A stretch of DNA of 64,000 nt from Sulfolobaceae archaeon. GTDB taxonomy: Archaea > Thermoproteota > Thermoprotei_A > Sulfolobales > Sulfolobaceae. The notes beneath the pieces were generated by a model that saw only the letters and a program-made list of their open reading frames with translations, did not search any database and was not told the origin of the DNA. The translations under genes were made by a program, and so were the position numbers. Each line of letters opens with the position of its first letter. Position 1 is the first letter of the stretch. Positions 14,289 to 55,390 of this stretch are shown here, piece after piece. Location: positions 32,001 to 96,000 of the forward strand of contig JAWARQ010000005.1 in NCBI GenBank assembly GCA_038893355.1. Direction: 5' to 3'.

Positions 14289-16199
14289 ATGAGTAATATA
14301 CTGGTAAATGAATTAAGATTGTTTTCTTTCTTATCAAAAAATAAAAAAGGGAGAATGCCTAAAGATATAATTAAAATTAAAAATATTGACGAATTTTCAA
14401 AATTAACAGGTGAAGAGACTCCACGATATGATTTTATAAGAGGTGAAGAAGGAGAAGTTATTGCAGATCTTATTGATCTAAGAGGTATTGAAGATCTAGG
14501 TGATAGGATTAGAGTATTACCTGGTACGAAATGGCGTGATGTAATAAATTTTTCTCCCGAAATATTTGGAAATCTTGATTTTAGCGTAGGTGGTGATGTT
14601 CACTTTAACGAACCAGTATTCGGATTTAATGAATTTGGTGAAATAAGAAATAGAGTAGAAGTCGAGGCAATAATTAATGGAAAGAGTTATACAGGAAAAT
14701 ATGTTGGAGGTATAATTAAATCAATAATTATAAGAAAAGAAATTAAAAATATAATTTATATGAAAAAAGACATTAGTATTAATGAATTTATAGATACTAT
14801 AGATTCTTGGTTTTCAAAAACGATACCAGTATTTAGGGATATTAGAGCATTTAAAAACGGAGAAAAAGTAACCCTCTTAGTAGCATATCCGGAATTTAGG
14901 AAAGGGTTATTAAAAAAATACATAGAGGATTTTAAAGATTCTAATGTAATTTATGAAGAATTTAACATTCCGCATCGCTATTTTTATTCTGGATACGTAG
15001 AATTAAATTCATTAAAAGATATAGTTAATTCTTTAAATAGAGCTGAGCATTGGAGTATGAGGATAGGGAGAAGGAAAATATATATTACAATATTTTCAAA
15101 TACTCCTTTATCAATTCCGTTCACTTACCTATCACCATACTGCAATATTGAGGATCAATCTTTTGGAATGGATTGTATAGGTTGTGGAAGGTGTGTGAAC
15201 ATATGCCCTCATTACGATCAGGTTAAACTTAGGGCATATTCCCCCCTTGGCTTTTATTTTTTATCAAGTATAGGAATGGGTAATGAAGTATCGCGATGCC
15301 ATATGTGTGGTTTATGTAATACGGTATGCCCAGTTAAATTAGATATTGTAGGCACATTAAAATCAGTTCTAAAGATAAATGGCGAAAAAGAGGTGAAGTA
15401 TAAACTAAATTTGAAACTTCCTAAGGTGATAGTGATCACTCCATTAAGTCAGAATTTTATATTAAGGGCAATAAAGGCAATGTTATATCTTAGAAGAAGG
15501 GGAATAAGGGTAGGTATAATAACATTAAACATTCCAGTCGAGGACATGATAAAGGGAAATTTAAGTGATGAAAATGTTATTAAGGAATTAAATGGAATAG
15601 ATGAAATAATAACAATAACACCAGAGGAATATAATTATCTATCTTTTTTAAAAACTAAAAAGATAATAGAAATTTCTTATATTGAAGATTATGTTATTAA
15701 GGAATTTAGGGATAAAATTAGAGGCTTACAAATCCATGAACCTTGTTTCTTAGGAAGCGAAAAGAATTTCCCTAAAGCAATAAAAGCGTGCTCCCACTCA
15801 TTCTTAGACTTTATTAATTCTGAAGATAATATACAACAAGTTAAGGCTGATATAACCTTATGCCCATTTACTGCATTAGTATCAAAAATACCAACATTTC
15901 TCGATAAAGCAGTTCAAATGGAAAATTTTGAAGAGTATGCAGAAAAAGCCTTAGAAAGTATTATTAGTTCGGTTAAGAATTATGAGAGTGTTATTCTCGA
16001 TATAGAATGGTATAAGGATTTAGATGATACAATATATTCTATGGTAATTAAGGACATTATGTGGTCTAAAGTAAAAAGTCTAGGTGATGAATTTATAATA
16101 CCATTATACTTTTATTTATCAATCAATCCACAACTAGAAATGCCAGAGATAACTATTGTTAAGAATATAATTGAGGAATATTTATCCAGTAAATACTAA
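14289..16199 (+). CDS. Degenerate FAD-binding / 2x[4Fe-4S] / CCG-like protein (AapX-type paralogue 1)
   Basis: VLPGTKWRDV and FSVGG FAD-fold remnants; CIGCGRCVNICP and CHMCGLCNTVCP; HEPCF, TLCPF. Confidence 0.75.
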   Translation: MSNILVNELRLFSFLSKNKKGRMPKDIIKIKNIDEFSKLTGEETPRYDFIRGEEGEVIADLIDLRGIEDLGDRIRVLPGTKWRDVINFSPEIFGNLDFSVGGDVHFNEPVFGFNEFGEIRNRVEVEAIINGKSYTGKYVGGIIKSIIIRKEIKNIIYMKKDISINEFIDTIDSWFSKTIPVFRDIRAFKNGEKVTLLVAYPEFRKGLLKKYIEDFKDSNVIYEEFNIPHRYFYSGYVELNSLKDIVNSLNRAEHWSMRIGRRKIYITIFSNTPLSIPFTYLSPYCNIEDQSFGMDCIGCGRCVNICPHYDQVKLRAYSPLGFYFLSSIGMGNEVSRCHMCGLCNTVCPVKLDIVGTLKSVLKINGEKEVKYKLNLKLPKVIVITPLSQNFILRAIKAMLYLRRRGIRVGIITLNIPVEDMIKGNLSDENVIKELNGIDEIITITPEEYNYLSFLKTKKIIEISYIEDYVIKEFRDKIRGLQIHEPCFLGSEKNFPKAIKACSHSFLDFINSEDNIQQVKADITLCPFTALVSKIPTFLDKAVQMENFEEYAEKALESIISSVKNYESVILDIEWYKDLDDTIYSMVIKDIMWSKVKSLGDEFIIPLYFYLSINPQLEMPEITIVKNIIEEYLSSKY

Positions 16200-16312
16200 C
16201 TATTTCAATCTTACAATAGAACATAAATAATATAAATAAGCTATTTAATTATTATTATTATTTATAATAAGATCTTGAAATAAATTATTATAGTATAGCT
16301 TCTCATTGATAT

Positions 16313-16326
16313 AAAAAGATTTTAAG
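16313..16326 (+). promoter_or_regulatory. BRE/TATA promoter for a leaderless aapF-aapE transcript
   Basis: AAAAAGA-TTTTAAG about 25 nt upstream of ATG 16349. Confidence 0.5.
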
Positions 16327-16348
16327 AAGTGTAAAGAATATTACCATA

Positions 16349-18178
16349 ATGGCTAAATCTAATAGTAAATCTACATTTTCTACGGATTCCTTTTATCTAC
16401 TCCTTTATAGATTTCCATTAACAAACTCTATAGCAAATTCATTAAGGCCTAAATTGTTAAAAGCTGGAATAAGTGAAGACCCAAATTATTTTGCTGCAAA
16501 GATAGTCTTTTACTTCTTATTAAGCCTGATAGCATCAATACTATTTATATTTATTGGAATTCTTGCTTTTATTAGATATACAGAAACTTTAGAAGCTAGA
16601 TTTTTAGGGGCTGGATTCATATTAATCATTTTTGCAGTTGTAATACCTTCAATAACATACTTTGTACTGACTACTGTAAGCATATCTAATAGGATAGATC
16701 AGAGAAGAACTGGTTTAGATGCAGAAACCCCTGCATTTGCTGCAATGTTTATAGTTTTCCTTAAATCTGGTTTATCGCCTCGAAGCTTATTTGAAGGTTT
16801 AAGTAGAATTGTGGCGCTAAGATATGTTAGCCAAATAGCTAAATATATTGTAAAGAGAATGAAGTATCTAAGTGAAGGTTTAGAGGAAAGTCTAGAGGCT
16901 GCATTAAATATAAGTCCTTCAAGAGTTTTTAATGACTATATATCAACCTACCTTACAGCATTGAGGACGGGCGCGCCTGTATTTGAGACTATGAGTAGTA
17001 AAACTAAGGATGTAATAAAATTATTAGAACTTATGGCTTCCTCAGCTGCCGATAAATTATCTGGAGTTGCAGAAACTTATGTCGTATGGCTAGCATCTGG
17101 CTATATTACATTGTTCTTAGCAATTTTACTCTTTTCAATTTTTCCTAATTTCTCTGGAGGTCTTTCGTTACCCTTAATGGGTGTACTGCTCGTAATTTTT
17201 GTACCAATCATGAACTTAATTTTTGTCTTACTTGCTGACTCGGTCCAACTAAAGTTTCCAGAAAGACCTCTTACAGCGTATAAAGTTTTCTGGATCTCCT
17301 TTAGTATAGGGTTAATAGTAATGTTTGGATTATTAATAATCAATAATCAATTAATTAAATTTATTACACTTTCGGGCACAACTAGTGATGTACCAATAAC
17401 TTTACTTATACTCACTATCTCACTATTAATCGCATCAGTACCTCCTGCTATAGTAGCTATAAGAGAAGTAAGAAAAGGTACTGGATATGATCAATATGTA
17501 GTTAGATTTTTGAGGGCAATTTCAGAAGGTCTAAGGGCAGGATTAAGCCCAGAAGCTGTGATAAAGAATCTTAAGAACAGTAAAGAGTTAGGAAAGATGA
17601 GGAAAATATTAGTTGAGATCGATGCATATTTAAGCTTAGGGTTAACTTTAAAAGATGCCCTCAAAAAAGCTTCGGAAAAAATTGATGAATTCTCGTCTAA
17701 GGTTGCTTTAGTAAGCTTAGCAGATATGATAGAGGTAGGAAGTATGACACCAGAAACTATCGAAGTCTTAGCAGAGCAGATAGAATCCCAAATTAGGATA
17801 AGAAGAGAGTATAATGCTAAAGTAAGGATATTGTTATATATGCCTTATATAGGCATACTATTGGCAATAATTGCAACAATCTTACTTTCTAACTCAATAT
17901 TACAGCTACTTACTGGAGAATATTCCAGAATATATGCAAGCTATGGACCATTAGCTACAGCAGCAACATTAATTCCAACTGCAGTATACATAATAACAAT
18001 ATCATCAATGTGGAATTCGTTTTTAGCTGGACTTCTAGTAGGAAAAATAGGGAATGGAAAGGTGGGTTTAGGGTTTATTCACTCTGCAATTCTAGTAATT
18101 ATAACGGCTTTACTCATAATGATTTCGCTTCAAATTAGCCTTATACCCAGTATTTCACCATCAACGTATGGTTTATAA
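16349..18178 (+). CDS. aapF: Type IV pilus / T2SS F-family membrane platform protein (AapF-like)
   Basis: Two T2SSF domains (FLKSGLSP; FLRAISEGLRAGLSP), about 9 TM segments, next to a secretion ATPase. Confidence 0.8.
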   Translation: MAKSNSKSTFSTDSFYLLLYRFPLTNSIANSLRPKLLKAGISEDPNYFAAKIVFYFLLSLIASILFIFIGILAFIRYTETLEARFLGAGFILIIFAVVIPSITYFVLTTVSISNRIDQRRTGLDAETPAFAAMFIVFLKSGLSPRSLFEGLSRIVALRYVSQIAKYIVKRMKYLSEGLEESLEAALNISPSRVFNDYISTYLTALRTGAPVFETMSSKTKDVIKLLELMASSAADKLSGVAETYVVWLASGYITLFLAILLFSIFPNFSGGLSLPLMGVLLVIFVPIMNLIFVLLADSVQLKFPERPLTAYKVFWISFSIGLIVMFGLLIINNQLIKFITLSGTTSDVPITLLILTISLLIASVPPAIVAIREVRKGTGYDQYVVRFLRAISEGLRAGLSPEAVIKNLKNSKELGKMRKILVEIDAYLSLGLTLKDALKKASEKIDEFSSKVALVSLADMIEVGSMTPETIEVLAEQIESQIRIRREYNAKVRILLYMPYIGILLAIIATILLSNSILQLLTGEYSRIYASYGPLATAATLIPTAVYIITISSMWNSFLAGLLVGKIGNGKVGLGFIHSAILVIITALLIMISLQISLIPSISPSTYGL

Positions 18179-18202
18179 ACTATAAAAACATTCTTTTTAA
18201 CT

Positions 18203-19918
18203 ATGAAATTACAAATTCCATTAGTTAAGCCTAAGAAGACTAGCGAAAAGAGGCAGATTAGATCTTTCGAATCCCTACCACTTACACTCACTCCAATTTT
18301 CTCGGGCTATGTAGAAATAGGAGATATAGTAAGTGAGTACGAAATAAATTTATTTAAAGTATTACCTGCTGAAATAATAGATAATTTAAATGAGAAAAGA
18401 ATAGAATTAAATATAGCTAATCCGCATGTATTTATTTCCTTTGAGCAAAACAAGGCAATATACAAATATAATTTGATTGAACCACCTCTAGATCAAGAAT
18501 CACTAGAATTATATCTATTATTAGTTAGCGAGATAGAAAGAGAACTACTATCAGAAAAAGAACATCTAGATCTAGGTTCGATATTAGTACAGCTTCATGA
18601 AAGGGGAAAATATAAAATCTTTGAAGGTAAAAGAGGCGATTTATATATCTTATCTACAAAAGCAAAAGTAACTTTATATTACTTATTACGTAATATCACC
18701 GGCTATAATATACTAGCACCATTATTAGCAGATCCGAAAATTGAAGATATATCTTGCAATGGAATGAATTTACCGGTTTATGTGTATCATAGAGACTATG
18801 AATACATGCCAACTAATATTATATTTACTGAAAAAATTCCAGTAGTGAATTATATCGTAGATGGAAAACAGTTGTTAGACCAACTAGTTATGAAACTGTT
18901 ATCCCTATCTGGCAAATCAATATCTATAGCTAATCCTATATCGGAAGGCATGTTACCTAAAGGAGAAAGAATTGCAGCTACTTTTAAGACAGAAGTTTCT
19001 GCAACTGGTTCTAGTTTTGTGATAAGAAGATTTAGTGAAGCACCAATAACTATTTTAGATTTAATCAACAGTAATACGTTATCACCAGAAATTGCAGCAT
19101 ACTTATGGTATGCAATGGATCTTAAATTATCCTTTATGGTTATAGGGGTAACTGGTTCCGGCAAAACTACGACACTAAATTCAACCATAAATCTAGTGAA
19201 AGAGTCGTCAAAAATTGTATCAATAGAAGATATTCCAGAAATTAAGATTGCACACGAGAATTGGGTACAGTTGTATGCAAGACCTGCATACGCTGGAATA
19301 GGTAAAGAAATAACACTAATGGATTTATTAAAGCTAGCATTAAGATATAGGCCAGATCTAATTGTGGTAGGTGAAATAAGAGGTGCAGAGGCTTATGTTC
19401 TTTTCCAGGCATTTTCAACTGGTCATGGTGGTGCAACGACCTTCCATGCTTACGATACTGAATCTGCCATTAAGAGACTTATGAATGAACCAATAAACAT
19501 ACCAAAAGAATGGATTCCAATGATGAATATCGTATTAACGGTAAGGAGGGTTCCAATATATACTGGAGAAAAGATTGTGGTAAGAAGAAGGGTAGTAGCA
19601 GTAGATGAAATATTAAGCGTTAATGATATTAGGAGGGTAAGTTACTGGGATCCAAAAAGAGATGTTCATGTCTTTGAACCTATTAATGCAAAAGTGATGG
19701 CAGCAAGATTAGAGGAAGTAGGAAAGACAATAGATGATGCTGTTGCAGAATTGGAAAGAAGGGCAACCTATTTATCAGCCCTGGCATCTATTAGGGAAAT
19801 TGTAAAGAGTCCAGAGAGTTATAAGGAAGTAAAGAAATATATAATAAAGTATAGTTTAAAGCCAGAGGAAGCGTATAAGGAAGTTACTGCAATGGCAAAA
19901 ATCTCCCCTAGAGCTTAA
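18203..19918 (+). CDS. aapE: Type IV pilus assembly ATPase (AapE-like)
   Basis: DPKIEDISCNG, Walker A GVTGSGKTT, SIEDIPE, LRYRPDLIVVGEIRG, His boxes TGH and TTFHA. Confidence 0.85.
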   Translation: MKLQIPLVKPKKTSEKRQIRSFESLPLTLTPIFSGYVEIGDIVSEYEINLFKVLPAEIIDNLNEKRIELNIANPHVFISFEQNKAIYKYNLIEPPLDQESLELYLLLVSEIERELLSEKEHLDLGSILVQLHERGKYKIFEGKRGDLYILSTKAKVTLYYLLRNITGYNILAPLLADPKIEDISCNGMNLPVYVYHRDYEYMPTNIIFTEKIPVVNYIVDGKQLLDQLVMKLLSLSGKSISIANPISEGMLPKGERIAATFKTEVSATGSSFVIRRFSEAPITILDLINSNTLSPEIAAYLWYAMDLKLSFMVIGVTGSGKTTTLNSTINLVKESSKIVSIEDIPEIKIAHENWVQLYARPAYAGIGKEITLMDLLKLALRYRPDLIVVGEIRGAEAYVLFQAFSTGHGGATTFHAYDTESAIKRLMNEPINIPKEWIPMMNIVLTVRRVPIYTGEKIVVRRRVVAVDEILSVNDIRRVSYWDPKRDVHVFEPINAKVMAARLEEVGKTIDDAVAELERRATYLSALASIREIVKSPESYKEVKKYIIKYSLKPEEAYKEVTAMAKISPRA

Positions 19919-19927
19919 GGCCTAGAT

Positions 19928-22201
19928 TTAGAACTGAGTTGCTAATCTTATATTATCTAAAATTAGATTATACGAAATTGCCTTTCTTATTATCTCTTCT
20001 TTTATAACGTTAAGGAATTCCTCTTTCTCAACTATCTCTCTTACAGTGTAATCAAGTTTTTTTGAATTTCTTATACCCCTAGTTAATTCAAAAGCAATTT
20101 CATTATAATCCATACCCTTAAGTATTTCATAGATCTTCGAAGAAATTTCTTTTATAGTCGCTTCAGATGCTAAATAGCGAGCTATCTCTTCTCTATTCAA
20201 ACTATCAAGTATTAGAGCTCTAACCCTTTTAGAGAAATTCCTTCTTAAAATAGGTATTGCGAGTAATGCAAAATAACCTTTGCCACCTACACTCCACATT
20301 ATTACCTTCTCTGCAATGTCATCAATTGAAGACAGTATTGCCTCTTTATACGCTTGTACTACTATATTTATAATTTTCTCTTCAACTTCTCTACTAGTTT
20401 TAGTTGTCTTAGTTGAAATCTCAGTAGGTGCTAGATAGGAATAAACTGATGTTGCACCAAATTTCCATGTAGAAAACGGACATATAGTTAATATATCTTC
20501 TTTTTTCTCTACGCTTACTATCTTCCCTAAATAATTAGTTATAAATAATCCAGCACAATCGTTATTATCGCCACTAATTCCTAACCTTTGAGCCCAGCAT
20601 CCAGCATGAATTTTTCCTTTTATAAAATCTTTTACGATTTCATAAACTAGAATTCCCTTATCACCGCTAAGGAGATTATATATATATAAAGCCTCGGGGC
20701 AGAAGAAGTAAACATATACTGCCCCCGACTCCTCCTTGATTCTTCTTATCTCCTTAACCTTCTCTTCAGCTTCCCTTATCTTCCCACTAATGTAACTATC
20801 AAATCCGCAACAGATTCCGTCGACTATTTTAAATCTCAGGGAATAGTTCTTTATCTTATCGCCAGACTCTACTATGAATTTAAGGAAGCTTTCTACTCCT
20901 TTCCTATCATACTTATAGCTACAACCTATGAAAAGTAATACTAGTGGTTGATTTTTATAAATTGAATTAACTACTTTTTCTACTTCACCCTTTAAAACTT
21001 CAGATACCTTTTCTATTTCGATCTTTAAATCAGATGAGGGAGAAATTCTCGGAAGTTTTTCCATATCTCTTGAGATCTTTATCCCCACTGGACAAACATA
21101 CTCGCATTTGTTGCAGCCAAAGCAGTATTCAAAGACCTTTTCGCCTTTTAATATTCTATTAAATCTTCCCGGTGGAGAATTTAATATATTTTTTGTAGCA
21201 TTATAAGCTAGACATGAATTTAAACATAATCCACAATTTATACATTTTAATGCGTCTAAATAAATATCTTGAATTTCTGAATAATCCTTTGGTACTTTTA
21301 CTTCATATTTATCAAAATTATTAATTATAAATTTCTGAATTTCTGAATAATCCTTTAATGATGGATAAGGGTAGATATAAGGGTGTGCCTTCAGGAACTT
21401 AAAAATGTTACCTAATTCTTCATAATCTATTGAAGAGAAGAGCACGTAATAATTTTCTGGAGAATTATATCTTATTAGGTAACCTATTTCAAAGTCTAGA
21501 TTAAGTTCATTAACTACCTCGAACTTATCTTGAGGTACTCTAAGACTTATGGGTATTTTACCGCTCTTTAAGATTTTATATATTTTATTACTAATTAATG
21601 AAACTATGTTCTTTGTATCTTGAATAGAATCTGGCTGAACTCCTAAAATTTCTTTATAAATTGAAGGAACGAAATAAACTACTCTGTTTTCTAAAAATAG
21701 AGCACTCCAAGAATATGGGATATTGACTGAAGTTTCTATTAGTTCAGGATAGTTTACAAAGCTCATTACAGCAATGTCCTTATTTTCAAGAAAATGTACT
21801 TGCTTCTTATAATTTACAAACCCAAACTTATAACTTCCAAAACCAGAACCATTGGTGGCTATAAACCCACCTACTGTACCCTCAAGATATAAAGGAAATA
21901 TTGCAGGATATAATGAGTTTCGCGACGAAACTTCTAAAACTTCCTTAAATGTAGCTCCTGCAGCAACTCTAGCCCTAATAATTCCACCCTTCTTATCCTC
22001 AATTATTTCCATTATAGATCCGTTATCGAGTAAACTCTTAGCAACTATTGGCTTAATTCTAGAGAATTGAATAATTTCTCCTGTCATTGAAGTTAATTTC
22101 CCAACAACGACTTCAGTTTCTCTAGTTATTAGATATCTTCTAATTTTTGAAATACCCAAAGATGCAAAAGCTCTACTAAATATCGAAGCATCTAATAGCA
22201 T
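19928..22201 (-). CDS. FAD-binding / 2x[4Fe-4S] / CCG protein (AapX-type paralogue 2)
   Basis: VAAGATFKEV, GTVGGFIATNGSG; CINCGLCLNSCL, CFGCNKCEYVCP; ICCGF, HAGCW, TICPF; convergent with the ATPase. Confidence 0.8.
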   Translation of the reverse strand: MLLDASIFSRAFASLGISKIRRYLITRETEVVVGKLTSMTGEIIQFSRIKPIVAKSLLDNGSIMEIIEDKKGGIIRARVAAGATFKEVLEVSSRNSLYPAIFPLYLEGTVGGFIATNGSGFGSYKFGFVNYKKQVHFLENKDIAVMSFVNYPELIETSVNIPYSWSALFLENRVVYFVPSIYKEILGVQPDSIQDTKNIVSLISNKIYKILKSGKIPISLRVPQDKFEVVNELNLDFEIGYLIRYNSPENYYVLFSSIDYEELGNIFKFLKAHPYIYPYPSLKDYSEIQKFIINNFDKYEVKVPKDYSEIQDIYLDALKCINCGLCLNSCLAYNATKNILNSPPGRFNRILKGEKVFEYCFGCNKCEYVCPVGIKISRDMEKLPRISPSSDLKIEIEKVSEVLKGEVEKVVNSIYKNQPLVLLFIGCSYKYDRKGVESFLKFIVESGDKIKNYSLRFKIVDGICCGFDSYISGKIREAEEKVKEIRRIKEESGAVYVYFFCPEALYIYNLLSGDKGILVYEIVKDFIKGKIHAGCWAQRLGISGDNNDCAGLFITNYLGKIVSVEKKEDILTICPFSTWKFGATSVYSYLAPTEISTKTTKTSREVEEKIINIVVQAYKEAILSSIDDIAEKVIMWSVGGKGYFALLAIPILRRNFSKRVRALILDSLNREEIARYLASEATIKEISSKIYEILKGMDYNEIAFELTRGIRNSKKLDYTVREIVEKEEFLNVIKEEIIRKAISYNLILDNIRLATQF
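21270..21356. repeat. Perfect 21-bp intragenic direct repeat
   Basis: TGAATTTCTGAATAATCCTTT at 21270-21290 and 21336-21356; encodes KDYSEIQ twice. Confidence 0.85.
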
Positions 22202-22434
22202 TACAATTAATTTTTAAGTAATCTAGAATAAAAGATTGCATTCAATGTTTAATACGTTTTATAGACAAATTTTATAACAATTTTTCGTTATATATTTTAA
22301 AATTATCTATAAAATAATAATGATTGGAGTATAGATAATATAAAGATAAGATATTGTGTTTATTACACTAAATGATCATTTAAGCGAAATAGATATTAAT
22401 GTGAATTATATATTGTTCTCATAAGGGATACTAG

Positions 22435-25422
22435 TTGAATCTAAGAGAAGAATTAGAGAAGCGATTTGGTGAAAAGTTTTCCGATAGTCTATTAGAAAGA
22501 TTAGCGCACTCCGCAGATATGGGATTTGTACCCCATTTAACTTGGGCTGGGATAAAAATAAATACAATCCCAGACTATGTTGTATACCCTGAAGATGTTG
22601 AAGATGTAATTGATATAGTTAAAATAGCAAGAAAATATAATGTACCAATTGTACCATATGGAAGAGCTACTAATAGGTATGGAAATGCAATTCCAACTGA
22701 AGGAGGAATAGTCGTAGATTTTTCAAGAATGGACAAAGTTGAAGTAGATGAAAAAGAGAAAATAGCACATGTAGAACCTGGTGCTACATGGAAAATCGTA
22801 GATTTATACGCACAGCAGAAAGGGTTACAGCTTAGAACATTTCCTTCATCCTATGATTCAACTATTGGAGGCGGTATTGCAGGAGATGCACTCGGTATTG
22901 GGTCATACGAGTATGGTTTCATTTGCGATAATGTCAGCTATGTACATATGGTAAATCCAAAGGGCGAGTTAATAAAGCTAGAAGGTAAGGATTTAGCAAT
23001 AGTATGTGGAGCAGAAGGTACTACTGGATTAATAACTAAAGCGGGAATAAAATTAAGATCATTTAATGTAACAGAAGCATTGGTAGTTCCAATTGATAAT
23101 CTTGAGGGTGTAATTAAAGCTATAAGCTTATTCTATAAAGAGGCGGTACCTGCATGGCATGTTCAGATAAGAGGACCTGCAATTTCTACATATATAGCAG
23201 AAAAGTATAAGATTAACTTACAGCCCGGCAAATGGAATATGGTGATACTTTATCCGACGAGTAGAGCTACATTGGTAGAGCCTAAAGTAAACGTAATTGC
23301 AACTTATCTCTCAACTAAGCCAATGGAAACTGAGTGGACAGGCTGGTGGAACTTTAATCATGGAGTGGTAGCCGCATTAAGAACGAAACATCTCCTTATA
23401 CACCAGCACGGCTTACTTCACTTTTCTAATCTTTATAAATTCATTAAAGATCTCGAAAAATATTTAGGAAGTTTAGGGAAATTAGAGGCTAATGAGGGCT
23501 TTGATTTAGATATTGCATTGGAGAGAAGAGAAATTCTCTTAGTAAATACATTTACAGCAGTTTCATTGCAACCACAAGATAAGAAATTGATCTATGATCT
23601 TGCGAAAAATACTCTAATGGCTAATGCATTTATAGAGAATGGCGGTTCCATGCTATCTATAGGTATGTTCTTACATAAGTGGGCTAAGAATAGGTTGAGC
23701 GTGATGAGTAAGACATTTCAAGATCTAGGTGTTGATAGATATGAATATATGAGAAGATATAAGGAAGAAATGGATCCAGAAGAGCTATTTAACCCTGGAA
23801 AAGTCTTTGAGCCTAAAAAGAGGGGTAAGGTGGTATTTGAAATAGTAAGAAGGCAAAATGAAGCCTTAAGATTTAGATTTGGAATCGGATTTGTAAAGGC
23901 TATAACACCAAGAGGGGAAGTAGAAGGTTATAAGGTTGCTAGGAAGTACCTAGATATTTTTGCAGATTATGCAATGGCTTGCATAGATTGTGGAATGTGT
24001 GTAACAGTATGTCCGCAATTTAGACTCATACCAAATCAACCCTATGCTCCTAAGGGTATGTTTGACTTTGTAAAGGGCGCAATATCACATTATGAACTCA
24101 GGGGAAGTATAGATATTCCAGATTCCTTCATAGCTGAAATCTCAGGATGTCATAAATGTGGATTATGTGATGGAGTATGCCCAGCTAAAATCCCTATATC
24201 TACCTTATTGGTTAGATTAAACTCCTTAGTTGCTAAAAAACTTCCAGAAACCACTCCAGTAGAAATTCCTATACCAACTATAGACGTAAATGATGTTAGT
24301 GATAATAACAGTAATATAGTGCTTTGGATTGGAAGGAATATGGCAGAGCAAATTGGATTAATTACGCTTATTATAAAATTATTAAAACAATTAAATCTAA
24401 AATTAAAGATAATAGGGACAAAATATGATAGTGGATTTTTAGACTATATAAGCGGAAATGGGAATACCTTAATAGAGAAAATCAGAAAGAATTTAGAGGT
24501 CTTAGGTAATGCTATAGAAATTATTACATTAACGCCAGAGGATTATAAAGTATTTAGTGAGGCATATAAAGATTTTGGAAAAATTGGAGGCATAGAATTC
24601 CTAGCAGAGATTATGCCAATCGAAATTAGGTTAATTAAATTACTTAAGATTGAAGGAAAAGGTGAGGAAATTAATTTACATGTAGCCTGCTTCTCTAATC
24701 AATATGCAAATGAGATTATAAAGAGACTAAGGGAGGAAGGATTTAAAGTAAAAAAGATTGAAGGTTGTGCAGGTGCCACGTTAGAGAAGAATCTTGGAAG
24801 GAGAGCGGATAAGATGGCCAGAGCATTAGGAGAGAGATATAATGAAATTGTTACATTATGCCCATTAGCAGCAGCTAAATTTAGGAGTGTAGGAGTTAAT
24901 GCAATGACCTTAATAGAATTTATAGCAAAGAAGTTAGGATTACAAGTTACCACTACCGAGCCTATAAGGATCGAAATAACCGAAGAAGATATAAGAAGAA
25001 TTCAAAAAGTATTCATGAGTAAACTTCAGGAATCTCTATTAGCTAGAGTAAACTTAATAGTTGATACATTGTCATTTACAACTTCTGGGACAGAAGACTA
25101 TAAGAAAATTATTGAACCATTGATTGTGGAAGCATTATATGATGCGATTAGTAATATGTCGCCTATACTAGACGAAATTATATCTAAAAAGACTAAGGAG
25201 ATTACATCTCCCGATTTAGCCAGTTTCGTTAGATCTAAAATTTATATTGACGCCTCTAGAATTATGGCGCAAGTAGTACTCGACAATATTGTAGAGAATT
25301 TTGCTAAAGTTATTAGAGAAAGTACTAAAGAAGAATATGATGAAAATGTGCTAAAAACTACCGTAATAGAAATTCTAAGAGATAATTTACCTAAGATCAA
25401 AGACTGGTTAGCCTCAAAATAA
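22435..25422 (+). CDS. FAD-linked oxidase-fold / 2x[4Fe-4S] / CCG fusion protein (longest paralogue, 3)
   Basis: PYGRATNRYG, GGIVVDFSRM, VEPG, STIGG, GAEGTTGLIT, DPEELFNPGK; CIDCGMCVTVCP, CHKCGLCDGVCP; HVACF, GCAG, TLCPL. Confidence 0.85.
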   Translation: MNLREELEKRFGEKFSDSLLERLAHSADMGFVPHLTWAGIKINTIPDYVVYPEDVEDVIDIVKIARKYNVPIVPYGRATNRYGNAIPTEGGIVVDFSRMDKVEVDEKEKIAHVEPGATWKIVDLYAQQKGLQLRTFPSSYDSTIGGGIAGDALGIGSYEYGFICDNVSYVHMVNPKGELIKLEGKDLAIVCGAEGTTGLITKAGIKLRSFNVTEALVVPIDNLEGVIKAISLFYKEAVPAWHVQIRGPAISTYIAEKYKINLQPGKWNMVILYPTSRATLVEPKVNVIATYLSTKPMETEWTGWWNFNHGVVAALRTKHLLIHQHGLLHFSNLYKFIKDLEKYLGSLGKLEANEGFDLDIALERREILLVNTFTAVSLQPQDKKLIYDLAKNTLMANAFIENGGSMLSIGMFLHKWAKNRLSVMSKTFQDLGVDRYEYMRRYKEEMDPEELFNPGKVFEPKKRGKVVFEIVRRQNEALRFRFGIGFVKAITPRGEVEGYKVARKYLDIFADYAMACIDCGMCVTVCPQFRLIPNQPYAPKGMFDFVKGAISHYELRGSIDIPDSFIAEISGCHKCGLCDGVCPAKIPISTLLVRLNSLVAKKLPETTPVEIPIPTIDVNDVSDNNSNIVLWIGRNMAEQIGLITLIIKLLKQLNLKLKIIGTKYDSGFLDYISGNGNTLIEKIRKNLEVLGNAIEIITLTPEDYKVFSEAYKDFGKIGGIEFLAEIMPIEIRLIKLLKIEGKGEEINLHVACFSNQYANEIIKRLREEGFKVKKIEGCAGATLEKNLGRRADKMARALGERYNEIVTLCPLAAAKFRSVGVNAMTLIEFIAKKLGLQVTTTEPIRIEITEEDIRRIQKVFMSKLQESLLARVNLIVDTLSFTTSGTEDYKKIIEPLIVEALYDAISNMSPILDEIISKKTKEITSPDLASFVRSKIYIDASRIMAQVVLDNIVENFAKVIRESTKEEYDENVLKTTVIEILRDNLPKIKDWLASK

Positions 25423-25522
25423 TTTAATTAAATCTTTATATAGACAAGATTATTTATTAATGCAATATCTCCTCAAGTATCTGACTTAACACATTTTTAG
25501 TTTCCTAAAACTATATATCTAT

Positions 25523-25597
25523 GGACCCGTAGCTCAGCCAGGATAGAGCGTGGGCCTTCGGAGCCCAAGGTCCCGGGTTCGAATCCCGGCGGGTCCG
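25523..25597 (+). tRNA. tRNA-Arg(UCG), no intron, CCA not encoded
   Basis: Acceptor GGACCCG/CGGGTCC, anticodon arm TGGGC-CTTCGGA-GCCCA, T-loop TTCGAAT. Confidence 0.96.
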
Positions 25598-25602
25598 CTA
25601 CT

Positions 25603-25794
25603 TTTAGAGTAAATGAACAAGAAGGTATTCTAGAATTACATAATTTTATTGACAGTGGAGGACCCTTCATACCGTGTGAACTATGCTCAAAAGAGCAGAA
25701 ATGTGAGTCAGATGCCGTTTAGCTGAAGGAGACTTATGACTTACCTACCGTAAAGTTAGGCCAGTTGTTGAGGCTAAGTCCCCATACTCAATAA
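25603..25794 (+). pseudogene. Possible decayed Cys/HTH-type gene remnant directly after tRNA-Arg
   Basis: One frame reads FRVNEQEGILELHNFIDSGGPFIPCELCSKEQKCESDAV*LKETYDLPTVKLGQLLRLSPHTQ*; no start codon, internal TAG at 25720. Confidence 0.3.
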
Positions 25795-31208: not shown

Positions 31209-31285
<77 letters not shown>

Positions 31286-53294: not shown

Positions 53295-54281
53295 GTGCTC
53301 AATATATATCCCAATGGAGCAATAGTTGTGGGCAACAACTTTACAATAGATGGACATTGGAATAGACCATTTCGAGTTATAACTCATTTTCACTCGGATC
53401 ATATAATAGAGCTTGATAAGAGTATTAGGGAATGTGCCGGTATTATTTCAACCCCAATAACTATTGATATACTTAATGCCCTAGGTTATAAAATTCCTAA
53501 ATTTAAGGATATGAGAATGGAATACGATATAAAAGTAAAAGTAGACGAAGAGATTATAGAATTAAAAAAGTCAGAGCATGTAATTGGTTCCGCGCAAGTG
53601 CTAATTCGTCTTGAAGATGGTTTAGAAGTAGCTTATACTGGGGATTTCAAGAATCCTGGAAAGGGTACACCAATCTTAAATCCTAATATTCTTATAATTG
53701 AGGCAACATATGGAAAGCCAGGATTAAGGAGGCCATTTAAAGATGAGGTAGAGGTGTTATTAGGTGATTATGTAAGAGATTATTTAGTAAAGGGACCAGT
53801 TAGAATTTATGGATATCATGGCAAGATACAAGAAGTAATGATGAAACTTAGAGAGCAGGGTATTGATGCACCTTATATAGTTTCTGGAAAGATAGATGAG
53901 ATAACTAAAATAGCAATAAAGTATGGTCTAAGAATAGATAATGTATATAGTTCTAGTTCTGCTGATGCTGCAGAGATTATTAAATCTAATTGGTATATTT
54001 CTTTCCATCATTATCTAGAATTTAGTAAAAAACGAAATAATTCAAAGTTTACGGACTTTTTAATAACTGGCTGGGAATTTAAACAGCCCATAAGAAAATT
54101 AGACGAGAGATCTTACATAGTAGCATTAAGTGACCATGCAGATTTTGATGAATTAATTTACTATGTAGATAACTCGGCTGCAGACGTTATAATAACTGAT
54201 GGTGGTAGAAAAAGCTATGCAAGAGAGTTAGCAGAGTATATAAGCAAATATTTAGGTAAAAAAGCGTTCAGTTTGCCTTAA
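53295..54281 (+). CDS. Metallo-beta-lactamase / beta-CASP nuclease (ligase-associated)
   Basis: THFHSDH, HVIGSA, YTGDF, EATYG, LSDHAD. Confidence 0.88.
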   Translation: MLNIYPNGAIVVGNNFTIDGHWNRPFRVITHFHSDHIIELDKSIRECAGIISTPITIDILNALGYKIPKFKDMRMEYDIKVKVDEEIIELKKSEHVIGSAQVLIRLEDGLEVAYTGDFKNPGKGTPILNPNILIIEATYGKPGLRRPFKDEVEVLLGDYVRDYLVKGPVRIYGYHGKIQEVMMKLREQGIDAPYIVSGKIDEITKIAIKYGLRIDNVYSSSSADAAEIIKSNWYISFHHYLEFSKKRNNSKFTDFLITGWEFKQPIRKLDERSYIVALSDHADFDELIYYVDNSAADVIITDGGRKSYARELAEYISKYLGKKAFSLP

Positions 54282-55390
54282 ATTACTAACTTTTCTTCTA
54301 CTAGCTTGCCATACTTAAATCTATCTGGAGAGAATATATCTAGGTATTTAGACTTTTTACCATCTATTATATAATCTGAAAGTATTTTACCAGAGTATGC
54401 GGAAAACATTGCACCATGCCCACTATAGCCAGCATCTATATATAGTCCTTCTGGCCATTCTTCCCCTTGGCCAATTATATGAGAATGATCCGGAGTCATT
54501 TCATAATATCCACTCCAGCCTCTCAGTATTCCTATCCCTCTAACTCTTTCTACTAAAGATTTTAATGATTTAAGGAACTTTATAATTGCATGAAGTGAAA
54601 CTGTAAGGGGAACAAATCCTCTTCCAGTTGCTTCATCTAAGCCTCCAATAATTTCTCCCTTTAGAGTTTGTGAAAAATAAATTCCGTGCTTGTGGGCTAT
54701 TATTAATGGCTCTATAAAGAATTTTATATCTTCAGTTAGATATAATTCTCTTCTTTCTGGAAATATAGGAATATCTATATTTAGACTCTTAAATAGGGAA
54801 GAGCTCCAGGCGCCTGCTGTAACTATAACTCTTTCAGCTTTAATTAAACTTCCAGAAAGTAATTTAACACCTTTAACTCTTCCGTTTTCTACTAATATCT
54901 TTTCTGCTTTATCATATATAATTTTGTATTTATCTTTTATAAAATTATAATAACTATATAGTAGATAATCATGATGGAATGATCCATTATGAGGTACATA
55001 ATAACATATTTCATCACTTATTGCAAGATAATTAAAATATTCCTTGCATTCTATAAACTTTCCAGAAACGTTGTAATATGCCCACATTGAATGAAGTCTC
55101 TTATATTTGTCTATAATCTCTTCATCGAGTATCCAAAGATATCCGCCAGTATAAATAAGCGGGTTTAAAAATAGTTCCTTACTTTGATTTATTAGATAAT
55201 TTATTGCATCTTTAGCGTATTCTACATTGTATGGATTATAAAAGTTGTACCTAAACCTACCTGCATTTCTACTACTTGAACCATAGCCTATTCTTTTCAT
55301 TTCGACTATAGTGACATCTCTAACACCTTTTTCAAGAAAATGATACGCTAGACTAAGTCCATGTAGACCTGCTCCTATAATTACTATCAT
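54278..55390 (-). CDS. DAO-family FAD oxidoreductase (proline dehydrogenase / sarcosine oxidase beta-like)
   Basis: IIGAGLHG, GSSSRNAG, WSGYYEMTPD, GYSGHG. Confidence 0.85.
   Translation of the reverse strand: MIVIIGAGLHGLSLAYHFLEKGVRDVTIVEMKRIGYGSSSRNAGRFRYNFYNPYNVEYAKDAINYLINQSKELFLNPLIYTGGYLWILDEEIIDKYKRLHSMWAYYNVSGKFIECKEYFNYLAISDEICYYVPHNGSFHHDYLLYSYYNFIKDKYKIIYDKAEKILVENGRVKGVKLLSGSLIKAERVIVTAGAWSSSLFKSLNIDIPIFPERRELYLTEDIKFFIEPLIIAHKHGIYFSQTLKGEIIGGLDEATGRGFVPLTVSLHAIIKFLKSLKSLVERVRGIGILRGWSGYYEMTPDHSHIIGQGEEWPEGLYIDAGYSGHGAMFSAYSGKILSDYIIDGKKSKYLDIFSPDRFKYGKLVEEKLVI

What the first reader, a model, noticed from the sequence alone, without database searches (positions are those of the whole stretch)
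14289..25422. Pilus motor pair bracketed by three paralogous flavo/iron-sulfur proteins: candidate redox-coupled pilus system
Seen: aapF-like and aapE-like genes lie between three genes (636, 757 and 995 aa) with the same layout: FAD-binding oxidase fold, two CxxCxxCxxxC ferredoxin motifs, CCG-like domains ending in T(L/I)CP(F/L), then a C-terminal helical extension. The flavin domain decays in steps (995 > 757 > 636 aa) while all six [4Fe-4S] motifs are kept. No pilin gene lies in the locus. Known: the S. acidocaldarius Aap pilus locus includes an Fe-S oxidoreductase-like gene, aapX, of unknown function. Inference: the three paralogues may form a hetero-oligomeric redox sensor or electron relay that acts with the pilus motor, instead of being three separate metabolic dehydrogenases.
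Basis: partly seen in the sequence, partly recalled or inferred. Interest (0 to 1): 0.8.

Follow-up and report, generated by a model that had tools for sequence, protein, structure and literature searches.

The report
Adhesion-pilus motor genes beside AapX paralogues
This is the known archaeal adhesion-pilus motor (AapF, AapE and the accessory protein AapX) of a hot-spring Sulfolobaceae archaeon, and the two extra flavin/iron-sulfur genes beside it are relatives of AapX that lie elsewhere in nearly all related genomes, so a three-protein redox pilus machine is unlikely.

Summary
Five genes lie at the stated coordinates: 636 aa, aapF-like, aapE-like, 757 aa on the minus strand, and 995 aa. The three outer proteins are true paralogues, each with two CxxCxxCxxxC motifs.

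The 757-aa protein is the reciprocal best match of S. acidocaldarius AapX. Its orthologue lies within 10 kb of aapE in 29 of 46 other family genomes.

The 636- and 995-aa genes are also present family-wide. They lie within 10 kb of aapE in only 1 of 46 genomes (G134), and in 0 of 21 metagenome loci.

The S. acidocaldarius genus makes Aap pili, according to the literature. It lacks both paralogues, and its AapX has no flavin or ferredoxin part.

The FAD-domain form of AapX is already in print. What is new here is small:
- AapX belongs to a Sulfolobaceae-specific trio derived from a roughly 1000-aa FAD/Fe-S dehydrogenase.
- Two early-branching genera keep all three genes together.

A fold test of AapE with the AapX core gave weak support only. 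No Aap pilin gene was found in this 84%-complete genome.

Verdict: an ordinary Aap core locus with an unusual, lineage-restricted neighbourhood.

The parts
14289..16199 (+). 636-aa paralogue (P0001). It has a compact VAO/PCMH-like fold without the flavin-binding motifs, two [4Fe-4S] motifs, an HdrB/EtfD-like CCG-like part with three conserved Cys, and a short helical tail. It is not the AapX orthologue.
   Evidence: Searches give the ORF, domains and translation. The model has pLDDT 89.7. Residues 4-289 match mouse D-lactate dehydrogenase 8jdb_A (Z 20.9, rmsd 3.9, 283 aligned). Residues 289-628 match EtfD 9ojn_A (Z 10.9, rmsd 4.1, 254 aligned). Residues 377-545 match HdrB 8rvu_B (Z 9.1, rmsd 3.9, 168 aligned). 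Orthologues occur in 43 of 46 other family genomes. Only G134 has one within 10 kb of aapE.
16349..18178 (+). aapF: membrane platform protein of the adhesion pilus (609 aa).
   Evidence: Pfam T2SSF, E 9.3e-18. 44.6% identity over 607 residues to the gene next to S. acidocaldarius aapE (L009). A TATA-like run lies 31-38 nt upstream of the ATG; calling it a promoter is my inference.
18203..19918 (+). aapE: assembly ATPase of the adhesion pilus (571 aa).
   Evidence: Pfam T2SSE, E 2.9e-36. Exactly one match at E<=1e-80 in each of 44 of 46 other family genomes, at 54-69% identity. In G045 that match is the protein recorded as S. acidocaldarius AAY81602.1. The only other ATPase of this type in the genome (42% identity) is on contig C4, beside two pilin-like genes.
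19928..22201 (-). aapX, long form (757 aa, P0002), convergent with aapE, with 9 bp between the stop codons.
   Evidence: Reciprocal best match with S. acidocaldarius AapX (AAY81601.1). P0002 hits it in G045 at E 4.4e-45. AapX has a single hit in G000, at C5:52000-52947, which is window 20000-20947, at E 9.6e-41. The orthologue lies within 10 kb of aapE in 29 of 46 genomes.
21314..22201 (-). aapX residues 1-296: compact VAO/PCMH-type flavoprotein fold with both flavin-binding motifs kept.
   Evidence: DprE1 4fdo: Z 15.5, rmsd 4.0, 254 aligned, model residues 1-295. Mouse D-LDH 8jdp: Z 13.7. G34, T37, G41 and the stretch G108-F128 are invariant or nearly so in 29 sequences.
21062..21274 (-). aapX residues about 310-380: two [4Fe-4S] motifs (C320/323/326/330 and C360/363/366/370).
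   Evidence: Pfam Fer4_8, E 5.1e-10. In alignment A1, C366 is replaced by D or E in 10 of 28 long-form sequences (my count).
20447..20959 (-). aapX residues about 415-585: two CCG-like half-domains (C427, C464-C465-G466, C501-P-E; C535, C549, C574-P-F). This part is kept in S. acidocaldarius AapX.
   Evidence: Alignment A1. Foldseek match to EtfD 9ojn, E 7.4e-5. No Pfam CCG hit.
19931..20404 (-). aapX residues 600-757: helical C-terminal domain. It is kept in S. acidocaldarius AapX and no related fold was recognised.
   Evidence: Model helices run 601-756. All Atlas structure matches have TM<=0.40.
22202..22434 (.). 233-bp AT-rich divergent intergenic region shared by aapX and the 995-aa gene.
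   Evidence: The same divergent pair is in G134, 303 bp apart. No promoter mapping was possible.
22435..25422 (+). 995-aa paralogue (P0003): full FAD-linked oxidase of the D-2-hydroxyacid dehydrogenase kind, fused to two [4Fe-4S] motifs, a CCG-like part and a helical tail. It is the likely parent type of the trio.
   Evidence: Pfam FAD_binding_4, E 2.1e-37. NCBIfam GlcD, E 7.5e-27, far below that model's cut-off. PDB sequence matches to D-lactate dehydrogenases at E 2.8e-19. Orthologues at 50-62% identity in 45 of 46 other family genomes. None in 107 genomes of 12 other families of the order. Mean column identity is 69%.

Best explanation
The locus is the core of the archaeal adhesion (Aap) type IV pilus machinery of an uncultured hot-spring Sulfolobaceae archaeon. 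It holds platform protein AapF, ATPase AapE and the accessory protein AapX in its long form (the 757-aa gene).

AapX is one of three old, family-specific paralogues. They derive from a roughly 1000-aa fusion of a VAO-type FAD dehydrogenase with a ferredoxin/CCG-like electron-output module. The 995-aa gene is that enzyme in intact form, most likely a D-2-hydroxyacid dehydrogenase of central metabolism. The 636-aa gene is a flavin-motif-less derivative of unknown role.

How it most likely works:
- AapX attaches to the AapE/AapF motor through its CCG-like and helical C-terminal half. This is the only part kept in S. acidocaldarius, where the gene is needed for piliation.
- Its flavin/Fe-S half is an optional add-on, possibly a redox input.
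- The 636- and 995-aa proteins are not parts of the pilus machine.
- Their position beside aapFEX in this genus and one other is a matter of genome history. It is either a relic of the tandem duplications that made the trio or a later compaction.

What is shown: gene identities, paralogy, orthology to AapX and the synteny statistics. What is taken from papers: AapX is required for Aap pili in S. acidocaldarius. What is inferred: the binding mode, the redox input, the enzyme activity of the 995-aa protein and the origin of the cluster.
For: Identity of the motor and AapX:
- Pfam T2SSF and T2SSE on the two motor genes.
- One-to-one orthologues of aapE across the family.
- The G045 proteins next to each other are letter-identical to S. 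acidocaldarius AAY81601 (AapX position), AAY81602 (ATPase) and AAY81604 (pilin).
- Passages of PMC11178785 give aapX = saci2316, aapE = saci2317, aapF = saci2318, and say the aapX deletion lacks pili.
- Reciprocal best match between P0002 and AapX.

Synteny (built):
- The 757-type gene lies within 10 kb of aapE in 29 of 46 genomes and at 10-40 kb in 6. It lies beyond 40 kb in 3 and on other contigs in 5. One of the pair was not found in 3.
- It is directly adjacent to aapE in G133, G045, G035, G134 and G000.
- The 636- and 995-type genes each lie within 10 kb in 1 of 46.
- aapE and aapF lie beside the 757-type gene in 9 of 21 metagenome loci. A 636- or 995-type gene lies there in 0 of 21.

The core module:
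- S. acidocaldarius AapX aligns only to P0002 residues about 390-740. It has hydrophobic N-terminal segments instead of the flavin and ferredoxin parts. This is already stated in bioRxiv 10.1101/2023.08.07.552258 (passages).
- Complex prediction of AapE with AapX 390-757 gave weak support. The score was 0.33 (runs 0.33, 0.49, 0.01) against a best control of 0.00. Partner pLDDT was at least 77, and the runs shared at least 27% of contacts.
- The tool's calibration: 116 of 157 solved complexes and 2 of 215 mismatched pairs reached the mark. At a score of 0.60 or under, only 18 of those 157 did, as did both mismatches.

The trio:
- hhalign E values of 6.5e-25 to 9.6e-33.
- Each paralogue forms its own clade holding every sampled genus.
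- All three are confined to family f1 in the order sample.
- A profile of the 757 family finds only 16 proteins at E<=1e-30 among 1.84 billion representatives.
Against: - Two early-branching genera (G000, G134) keep all three paralogues within 11 kb of the motor. In G134 the 636-type gene ends 20 bp before aapF. Chance relocation of two specific genes to one spot is unlikely, so some cause is needed, whether history or selection.
- The genus without 636- and 995-type genes (g4) is also the one whose AapX lost its flavin/Fe-S half. That would fit a functional tie among the three, though it is one event.
- In this window aapX is convergent with aapE, so it is not co-transcribed with the motor. 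In six g3 genomes and in four others it lies more than 30 kb away.
- The complex prediction is only weak support.
- No Aap pilin gene was found in G000. Whether this organism makes the pilus is therefore open; the genome is 83.8% complete.
- No enzyme activity, cofactor content or expression was measured. No RNA run holds the stretch.
Confidence: 0.75

Rival explanations
1. The three paralogues form a hetero-oligomeric redox sensor or electron relay that works with the AapE/AapF motor. The 995-aa enzyme would be the catalytic, flavin-bearing member. The 757- and 636-aa proteins would be GlcE-like partners.
For: - All three flank the motor in G000 and G134, with a 20-bp gap between the 636-type gene and aapF in G134.
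- aapX and the 995-aa gene share a short divergent intergenic region in both genomes.
- The trio is specific to the family that has this AapX.
- g4 lacks the 636- and 995-type genes, and its AapX lacks the flavin/Fe-S half.
- The 757 family keeps its flavin-binding motifs nearly invariant.
- The N-terminal fold of the 636-aa protein also matches glycolate oxidase subunit GlcE, 2yvs_B (Z 11.2, rmsd 3.9, 174 aligned). GlcD, GlcE and GlcF are known to work as one enzyme; that is established knowledge, recalled.
Against: - The 636- and 995-type genes lie within 10 kb of aapE in 1 of 46 other family genomes each, and beyond 40 kb in 27 and 30.
- Neither lies within 9 kb of a 757-type gene in 21 metagenome loci.
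- S. acidocaldarius assembles Aap pili (papers) without either gene.
- The 995-aa family is much more conserved than the other two, as expected of a housekeeping enzyme: 69% mean column identity against 50% and 45%.
- No interaction among the paralogues was tested here.
Confidence: 0.1
2. On the origin of the cluster: it is secondary. The three genes were dispersed in the family's ancestor. They were brought together in the g1/g56 lineage by inversion and by loss of the DNA in between, in small genomes, with no functional meaning. The alternative is that the cluster is a relic of the tandem duplications that created the trio.
For: - In several genera (g8, g2, g3) all four genes lie within about 100-275 kb in a fixed order, 636 ... 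995 ... 757-aapE. One inversion plus deletions would nearly give the order in the window.
- G000 is small: 1.40 Mb at 83.8% completeness.
- g54 branches first in the 995 and 636 clades and has the dispersed state.
Against: - A tandem origin is the usual way paralogues arise.
- G134 and G000 are early branches in the best-resolved tree, that of the 995-aa protein. They are sisters in the 757 tree, with SH-like support of 0.82-0.94.
- The 995-aa gene's orientation does not fit a single inversion.
- Both directions cost two events on the trees I have, and the rooting rests on long paralogue branches.
Confidence: 0.4
3. The 757-aa protein is a metabolic Fe-S flavoprotein in this organism. Its place next to aapE is conserved gene order only, and the pilus role of AapX is special to S. 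acidocaldarius.
For: - It is convergent with aapE, so it has its own promoter.
- It keeps flavin and Fe-S motifs.
- In G090 five housekeeping genes separate it from aapE.
- It is far from aapE in g3, g9 and G111.
Against: - Reciprocal best match with AapX.
- It follows aapE directly, on the same strand, in G133 and in g4.
- The part shared with S. acidocaldarius AapX is well conserved.
- The AapE + AapX-core fold gave weak support.
- It lacks about 200 residues of the substrate (cap) region that the 995-aa enzyme has.
Confidence: 0.08

Closest known systems
Aap (archaeal adhesive) type IV pilus locus of Sulfolobus acidocaldarius (aapA, aapX, aapE, aapF, aapB; saci2314-2319)
   Same: Orthologous aapF (44.6% identity), aapE (56%) and aapX (31-34% over the shared half), with aapF before aapE.
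   Different: - No pilin genes flank the motor, and none of the AapA/AapB kind was found in the genome.
- aapX is the long form, with a VAO-like and ferredoxin half and no membrane helices.
- aapX is inverted relative to aapE.
- Two aapX paralogues flank the locus; the S. acidocaldarius genus lacks both.
Long-form AapX homologues of other Sulfolobales, described as having an FAD-binding domain in place of the transmembrane helix (bioRxiv 10.1101/2023.08.07.552258, also held as PMC11178815; passages seen)
   Same: Same family and architecture. P0002 is 36-46% identical to orthologues in the other 12 long-form genera of the family, and 72% and 57% to two metagenome proteins.
   Different: In most genomes the gene lies about 5-7 kb from aapE, with housekeeping genes between. 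Here it abuts aapE. The paper's Supplementary Figure 17 could not be seen.
Fused FAD-linked oxidase / Fe-S proteins of the YdiJ and GlcD-GlcE-GlcF (glycolate oxidase, D-2-hydroxyacid dehydrogenase) kind
   Same: The 995-aa protein has FAD_binding_4, two [4Fe-4S] motifs and a CCG-like module in the same order. Its best solved relatives are D-lactate dehydrogenases.
   Different: - Scores are far below the NCBIfam cut-offs: YdiJ 60.5 bits against 1350, GlcD 94.2 against 567.9.
- The CCG cysteines are mostly lost: three Cys in the second half-domain and none in the first.
- There is an extra helical C-terminal tail.
- The substrate is unknown.
EtfD / HdrD-HdrB type Fe-S modules (ferredoxin domain plus two CCG domains)
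   Same: The C-terminal half of the 636-aa model matches M. smegmatis EtfD 9ojn_A (Z 10.9, rmsd 4.1, 254 aligned) and HdrB 8rvu_B (Z 9.1, rmsd 3.9, 168 aligned). The 757-aa model matches 9ojn by Foldseek at E 7.4e-5.
   Different: There is no membrane cytochrome part. The cysteine sets are incomplete for two non-cubane clusters. No Pfam CCG match.

Membership tests
Aap adhesion pilus system (Sulfolobales type) | AapE-type assembly ATPase | tested here: met
   Pfam T2SSE. One-to-one orthologue of the S. acidocaldarius protein AAY81602.1, at 56% identity.
Aap adhesion pilus system (Sulfolobales type) | AapF-type platform protein next to the ATPase | tested here: met
   Pfam T2SSF. 44.6% identity to the S. 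acidocaldarius neighbour of aapE. A 24-bp gap separates it from aapE.
Aap adhesion pilus system (Sulfolobales type) | AapX accessory protein | tested here: met
   Reciprocal best match of P0002 with AAY81601.1. It abuts aapE.
Aap adhesion pilus system (Sulfolobales type) | AapA/AapB pilins with a class III signal peptide | tested here: inconclusive
   - No match in G000 to the S. acidocaldarius pilins at E<=1, apart from one chance-level hit with internal stops.
- The motif scan found pilin-like genes only beside the second ATPase on C4, plus larger proteins.
- Pilin_N gave matches only below its cut-off.
- The genome is 83.8% complete, and pilins diverge fast. In G134 two of the three pilin matches sit at contig ends.
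Aap adhesion pilus system (Sulfolobales type) | Prepilin (class III signal) peptidase PibD in the genome | tested here: met
   Peptidase_A24 match over the cut-off at G000:C3:135147-135491 (46.2 bits).
VAO/PCMH FAD-linked oxidases (Pfam FAD_binding_4) | FAD-binding domain recognised by the family model | tested here: met
   - 995 aa: E 2.1e-37, 128.4 bits against a cut-off of 26.4.
- 757 aa: E 2.7e-6, 27.6 bits, just over the cut-off, and only over residues 75-128.
- 636 aa: no hit at E<=0.001, but the fold is kept (Z 20.9 to 8jdb_A).

So the feature is met for the 995-aa protein, marginal for the 757-aa protein, and met by fold only for the 636-aa protein.
VAO/PCMH FAD-linked oxidases (Pfam FAD_binding_4) | Bound FAD and a substrate (cap) domain with catalytic residues | not testable with these tools
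   - The cap region is about 200 residues shorter in the 757- and 636-aa proteins.
- The flavin-binding motifs are conserved in the 757 family and not in the 636 family.
- Cofactor content needs purified protein.
CCG domain (Pfam PF02754; HdrB, GlcF, LutA) | Match to the family model with the CX(n)CCGX(n)CXXC cysteines (motif recalled) | tested here: not met
   - No CCG family at E<=0.001 in any of the three proteins.
- The 757-aa protein keeps C...CCG...CPE in the first half and C...C...CPF in the second.
- The 636- and 995-aa proteins have no Cys in the first half.
- Fold likeness to HdrB and EtfD remains.
D-2-hydroxyglutarate dehydrogenase YdiJ / glycolate oxidase GlcD (NCBIfam equivalogs) | Score over the curated cut-off | tested here: not met
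   P0003 scores 60.5 bits against 1350 for YdiJ, and 94.2 bits against 567.9 for GlcD. It works like this kind of enzyme by architecture, but it is not a member of these equivalog families.

The most novel reading that the evidence does not exclude
The trio is one redox device tied to the pilus. The 995-aa dehydrogenase oxidises a 2-hydroxyacid. It pairs, as GlcD pairs with GlcE, with the flavin-poor 636-aa protein and with AapX. AapX carries the resulting redox state to the AapE motor through its CCG-like/helical half, so that pilus assembly or retraction follows the cell's electron supply.

On this reading the three-gene cluster around aapFE in the two early-branching genera is the ancestral form of the system. 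The S. acidocaldarius genus later dropped the redox part: it lost the 636- and 995-type genes and the flavin/Fe-S half of AapX, and anchored AapX in the membrane instead.
Probability: 0.1. Interest if true: 0.75.

Novelty: new member of a known kind. Interest (0 to 1): 0.33.

Why it matters
AapX is required for the only archaeal pilus shown to retract, and the papers I read all call its function unknown.

This analysis places AapX in a family-specific trio with an intact dehydrogenase parent. It also shows that the essential, conserved part is the CCG-like/helical half. Together these narrow where to look: binding to the motor by that half, with the flavin/Fe-S half as an optional input.

The two genera that keep the trio together offer a natural test of whether the paralogues have anything to do with pili.

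For the scan, the main value is a correction. Of the three genes only one is a pilus gene, and it is not the one that heads the operon-like row.

Tried and rejected
- **Pilin search.** S. acidocaldarius AapB and AapA against G000 gave nothing usable. A class III signal-peptide scan of the whole genome found only the C4 pair beside the second ATPase, plus larger proteins. Pilin_N matched only below its cut-off. Two small ORFs beside aapF in G118 and G133 are not pilins.
- **Closer relatives.** The metagenome scan with P0002 alone found no relative. The second scan, with alignment A1, gave 21 loci at 36-46% identity. It did not return the 57-72% relatives seen as proteins P0006, P0007, P0094 and P0095, so the arrangement in the nearest relatives is unknown.
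- **Expression.** No RNA holder is listed for the stretch. Contigs of four DNA runs cover it in short pieces. No listed piece bridges 636|aapF or 757|995.
- **C-terminal helical domain.** The Atlas search gave no usable feature hit, and structure matches only at TM<=0.40.
- **VIA-align lists** are filled by the N-terminal VAO fold, so the Fe-S/CCG half of the 757-aa model was barely tested.
- **More distant relatives.** P0171 and P0135 were looked up for names and gave only generic labels. I did not follow them. The published statement that arCOG07320 occurs in some Thermoplasmatales and Nitrososphaerota was therefore not checked.
- **Earlier findings of the scan:** nothing on this place or these words.
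- **Tree scripts.** The trees were then made with FastTree directly.
- **G045 in the combined tree.** The truncated AapX of G045 was left out of the combined tree because it lacks the N-terminal half.
- **Complex test.** I considered testing a heterodimer of the paralogues in the one complex job. I rejected it, because paralogues of dimeric VAO enzymes may pass by likeness alone.
Full report
**What is there**

The window is G000:C5:32001-96000 of a 1.40-Mb, 17-contig genome that is 83.8% complete. G+C is about 0.28-0.35.

The finding's span holds five ORFs:
- 14289-16199 +, 636 aa, P0001
- 16349-18178 +, 609 aa
- 18203-19918 +, 571 aa
- 19928-22201 -, 757 aa, P0002
- 22435-25422 +, 995 aa, P0003

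Pfam gives T2SSF and T2SSE for the two middle genes and 4Fe-4S dicluster families for the three outer ones. FAD_binding_4 scores E 2.1e-37 for the 995-aa protein and 2.7e-6 for the 757-aa protein. It gives nothing at E<=0.001 for the 636-aa protein.

The flanks are housekeeping genes. Upstream lie GatD, GatE and a class II-type ribonucleotide reductase. Downstream lie ribose-5-phosphate isomerase, Elf1 and GGGP synthase. The rest of the window is similar.

**The three outer proteins are paralogues over their whole length**

- Pairwise BLASTP gives 21-28% identity at E 1e-8 to 1e-16.
- I aligned orthologues of each: A1 with 29 sequences, A3 with 21 and A4 with 17.
- Profile-profile comparison gives E 6.5e-25 for 757 vs 995 (655 columns, query 34-722 on template 79-976). 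It gives 9.6e-33 for 636 vs 995 and 8.9e-24 for 757 vs 636.

The AlphaFold models are confident: 757 aa at pLDDT 88.0 and pTM 0.77, and 636 aa at 89.7 and 0.81. Structural matches:
- Residues 1-296 of the 757-aa model align over the whole VAO-type fold: DprE1 4fdo at Z 15.5, rmsd 4.0, 254 aligned, and mouse D-lactate dehydrogenase at Z 13.7.
- Residues 4-289 of the 636-aa model match mouse D-LDH 8jdb_A at Z 20.9.
- Residues 289-628 of the 636-aa model match EtfD 9ojn_A at Z 10.9.
- Residues 377-545 of the 636-aa model match HdrB 8rvu_B at Z 9.1.

The architecture is therefore a compacted flavoenzyme fold, a two-cluster ferredoxin domain, an HdrB-like pair of CCG-like half-domains and a helical tail. 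No Pfam CCG model matches, so 'CCG-like' is a statement about fold.

**Which one is AapX**

Passages of PMC11178785 give aapX = saci2316, aapE = saci2317 and aapF = saci2318. They state that the aapX deletion does not assemble pili. That result goes back to a 2012 paper that I did not read.

In G045, three genes lie in a row on one strand: a 527-aa gene, the ATPase and the platform gene. A pilin gene lies beside them. Their products are letter-identical to S. acidocaldarius AAY81601.1, AAY81602.1 and AAY81604.1.

P0002's best match in G045 is that 527-aa gene, at E 4.4e-45 over residues 392-736. In reverse, the 527-aa protein has a single hit in G000, inside the P0002 gene, at E 9.6e-41. It has none in P0001 or P0003. 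So the 757-aa gene is aapX.

S. acidocaldarius AapX has strongly hydrophobic N-terminal segments. It has no flavin or ferredoxin part.

This difference is already in print. Passages of bioRxiv 10.1101/2023.08.07.552258 say that AapX homologues of other species lack the transmembrane helix and have an FAD-binding domain instead. They also say these homologues lie within about ten genes of the ATPase and platform genes.

**Synteny across the family**

I searched all 47 genomes held for the family with each protein and tabulated the distances to aapE in the 46 other genomes.

| Gene type | <=10 kb | 10-40 kb | >40 kb | other contig | one not found |
|---|---|---|---|---|---|
| 757 | 29 (11 genera) | 6 (all g3) | 3 | 5 | 3 |
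| 636 | 1 (G134) | 1 | 27 | 13 | 4 |
| 995 | 1 (G134) | 0 | 30 | 11 | 4 |

G134 (genus g56) has the same order as the window, together with the same five upstream genes.

In 21 metagenome loci holding a 757-type gene, aapE and aapF lie within 9 kb in 9. A 636- or 995-type gene lies there in none.

In G090, whose proteins are recorded under Sulfurisphaera tokodaii, aapF-aapE sit among translation and cofactor genes. Five housekeeping genes separate them from the 757-type gene.

AapB-like pilin genes are found in 44 of 46 other genomes, mostly far from aapEF, and not in G000.

**Age and range of the trio**

In a joint tree each paralogue forms its own clade containing every sampled genus. The duplications therefore predate the family as sampled. 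The 636 and 757 clades sit on long branches.

Within the order sample:
- 636-type genes were found only in family f1: 11 of 13 genomes, with only weak ferredoxin-level hits elsewhere.
- 995-type genes were found in 11 of 13 f1 genomes and in 0 of 107 genomes of 12 other families at E<=1e-40.

A profile of the 757 family finds 16 proteins at E<=1e-30 among 1.84 billion representatives, all of that family or fragments of it. The next hit is a 1000-aa protein of the 995 type, at E 3.6e-21.

The 995 family is the best conserved, at 69% mean column identity, with the flavin domain and cap region full of invariant residues. Its nearest solved relatives are D-lactate dehydrogenases. It falls far below the NCBIfam cut-offs for YdiJ and GlcD.

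I infer that the 995-aa protein is an active D-2-hydroxyacid-type dehydrogenase and the parent form. The other two are derived from it by shrinking the cap region.

The 757 family keeps both flavin-binding motifs nearly invariant (G34, T37, G41; G108-F128) and its cysteines. The third Cys of the second cluster is D or E in 10 of 28 long forms, by my count. The 636 family keeps all eight ferredoxin cysteines but not the flavin motifs.

**How AapX may work**

The part common to all AapX proteins, including the S. acidocaldarius one that is genetically required, is the CCG-like plus helical half.

I used the single complex job on AapE (alignment A2) with AapX residues 390-757. The verdict was weak support:
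- Median score 0.33 (runs 0.33, 0.49, 0.01); best of three controls 0.00.
- Partner pLDDT at least 77; the runs agree in at least 27% of contacts.
- By the tool's calibration, 116 of 157 solved complexes and 2 of 215 mismatches reach the mark.
- At 0.60 or under, only 18 of those 157 do, as do both mismatches.

This mildly favours a direct contact with the ATPase and nothing more. The helical domain has no recognisable relatives.

A bioRxiv preprint reports AapX as a phosphoprotein enriched with the phosphatase PP2A in late growth (passages). That would fit a regulatory accessory role.

**What remains odd**

Two specific, normally distant paralogues sit on either side of aapF-aapE-aapX in two genera.
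- In G134 the 636-type gene ends 20 bp before aapF. In the window the gap is 149 bp, and it holds a TATA-like run 31-38 nt before the aapF start.
- aapX and the 995-aa gene are divergent neighbours, 233 bp apart.
- G134 and G000 are early branches in the 995 tree and sisters in the 757 tree, with SH-like support of 0.82-0.94.

A relic of tandem duplication beside the motor genes is an attractive explanation. A secondary compaction is equally parsimonious on my trees, because g54 branches first and has the dispersed state.

Second, the one genus without 636- and 995-type genes (g4) is the one whose AapX lost its flavin/Fe-S half. This is a single event and may reflect general gene loss.

**Assembly check and expression**

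Near-identical DNA is held by hot-spring metagenome runs of several studies.

Contigs of run X2 bridge RNR|636, aapF|aapE and aapE|757. Contigs of X3 and X6 also bridge aapE|757. No listed piece bridges 636|aapF or 757|995.

The independent genome G134, with the same order, argues against a chimeric assembly. No RNA run holds the stretch, so nothing can be said on expression.

**Comparison with what is known, and verdict**

The locus passes the membership tests for the Aap system on ATPase, platform protein, AapX and the prepilin peptidase. The pilins were not found, which is inconclusive in an incomplete genome.

The long AapX form is already described. Its arCOG is reported as widespread in Sulfolobales, with function unknown (PMC13705601, passages).

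My two literature searches listed no paper that mentions paralogues of aapX or a clustered trio. The supplements of these papers were not seen and may bear on it.

I rate the finding as a new member of a known kind, with a lineage-restricted neighbourhood of some evolutionary interest. Interest is 0.33.

Noticed in passing
window 25523-25598 (+): tRNA-Arg(TCG) lies 100 bp after the 995-aa gene. Synteny with G134 ends just here. The depth spike at 25108-25611 in all four laid runs is explained by this conserved tRNA. A second tRNA, Ala(TGC), lies at 31209-31285.
   Followed up: partly
G000:C4:94951-95789 (-) and C4:97617-98417 (-), outside the window: Two small genes with class III signal peptides (128 and 146 aa) lie beside the genome's only other T2SSE-type ATPase (496-aa frame, 42% identical to AapE). 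This is probably the UV-inducible (Ups) pilus locus. No archaellum-type third ATPase was found in this 84%-complete genome.
   Followed up: partly
alignment A1, column of P0002 residue C366: In 10 of 28 long-form AapX sequences the third cysteine of the second [4Fe-4S] motif is Asp or Glu (CxxCxxD/ExxxCP). The second cluster may therefore differ in kind between genera.
   Followed up: no
L008 (G090:C1:512000-530000) and L013, L016: In most genera aapF-aapE are embedded in a conserved housekeeping block: aIF2-beta, DUF424, NMD3, RNase HII and a DRG-type GTPase upstream; a family-2 glycosyltransferase, pyrophosphatase, HD hydrolase, ThiD/ThiN and MoaD-MoaE between aapE and the AapX-type gene. 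The glycosyltransferase directly after aapE may be worth a look, since Aap pilins are glycosylated.
   Followed up: no
window 14289-14354: The public collection records the product of the 636-aa ORF as 614 aa, starting at the Met 22 codons downstream. Orthologue alignments begin near residue 8-11, so the true start is uncertain.
   Followed up: partly
window 54278-56805 (-): A DAO-type FAD oxidoreductase (370 aa) lies next to a 471-aa protein with pyridine-nucleotide-disulphide oxidoreductase, BFD-like [2Fe-2S] and sarcosine-oxidase A3 domains. This looks like a separate flavin/Fe-S dehydrogenase pair, unrelated to the finding.
   Followed up: no
P0171 (832 aa) and P0135 (618 aa), from the representative search: Two metagenome proteins outside the three families align to the ferredoxin, CCG-like and part of the helical region of AapX and the 995-aa type (for example profile positions 292-662 of the 757 family). 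Their N-termini are different. They carry only generic names. They may be the more distant AapX-like proteins reported outside Sulfolobales.
   Followed up: partly
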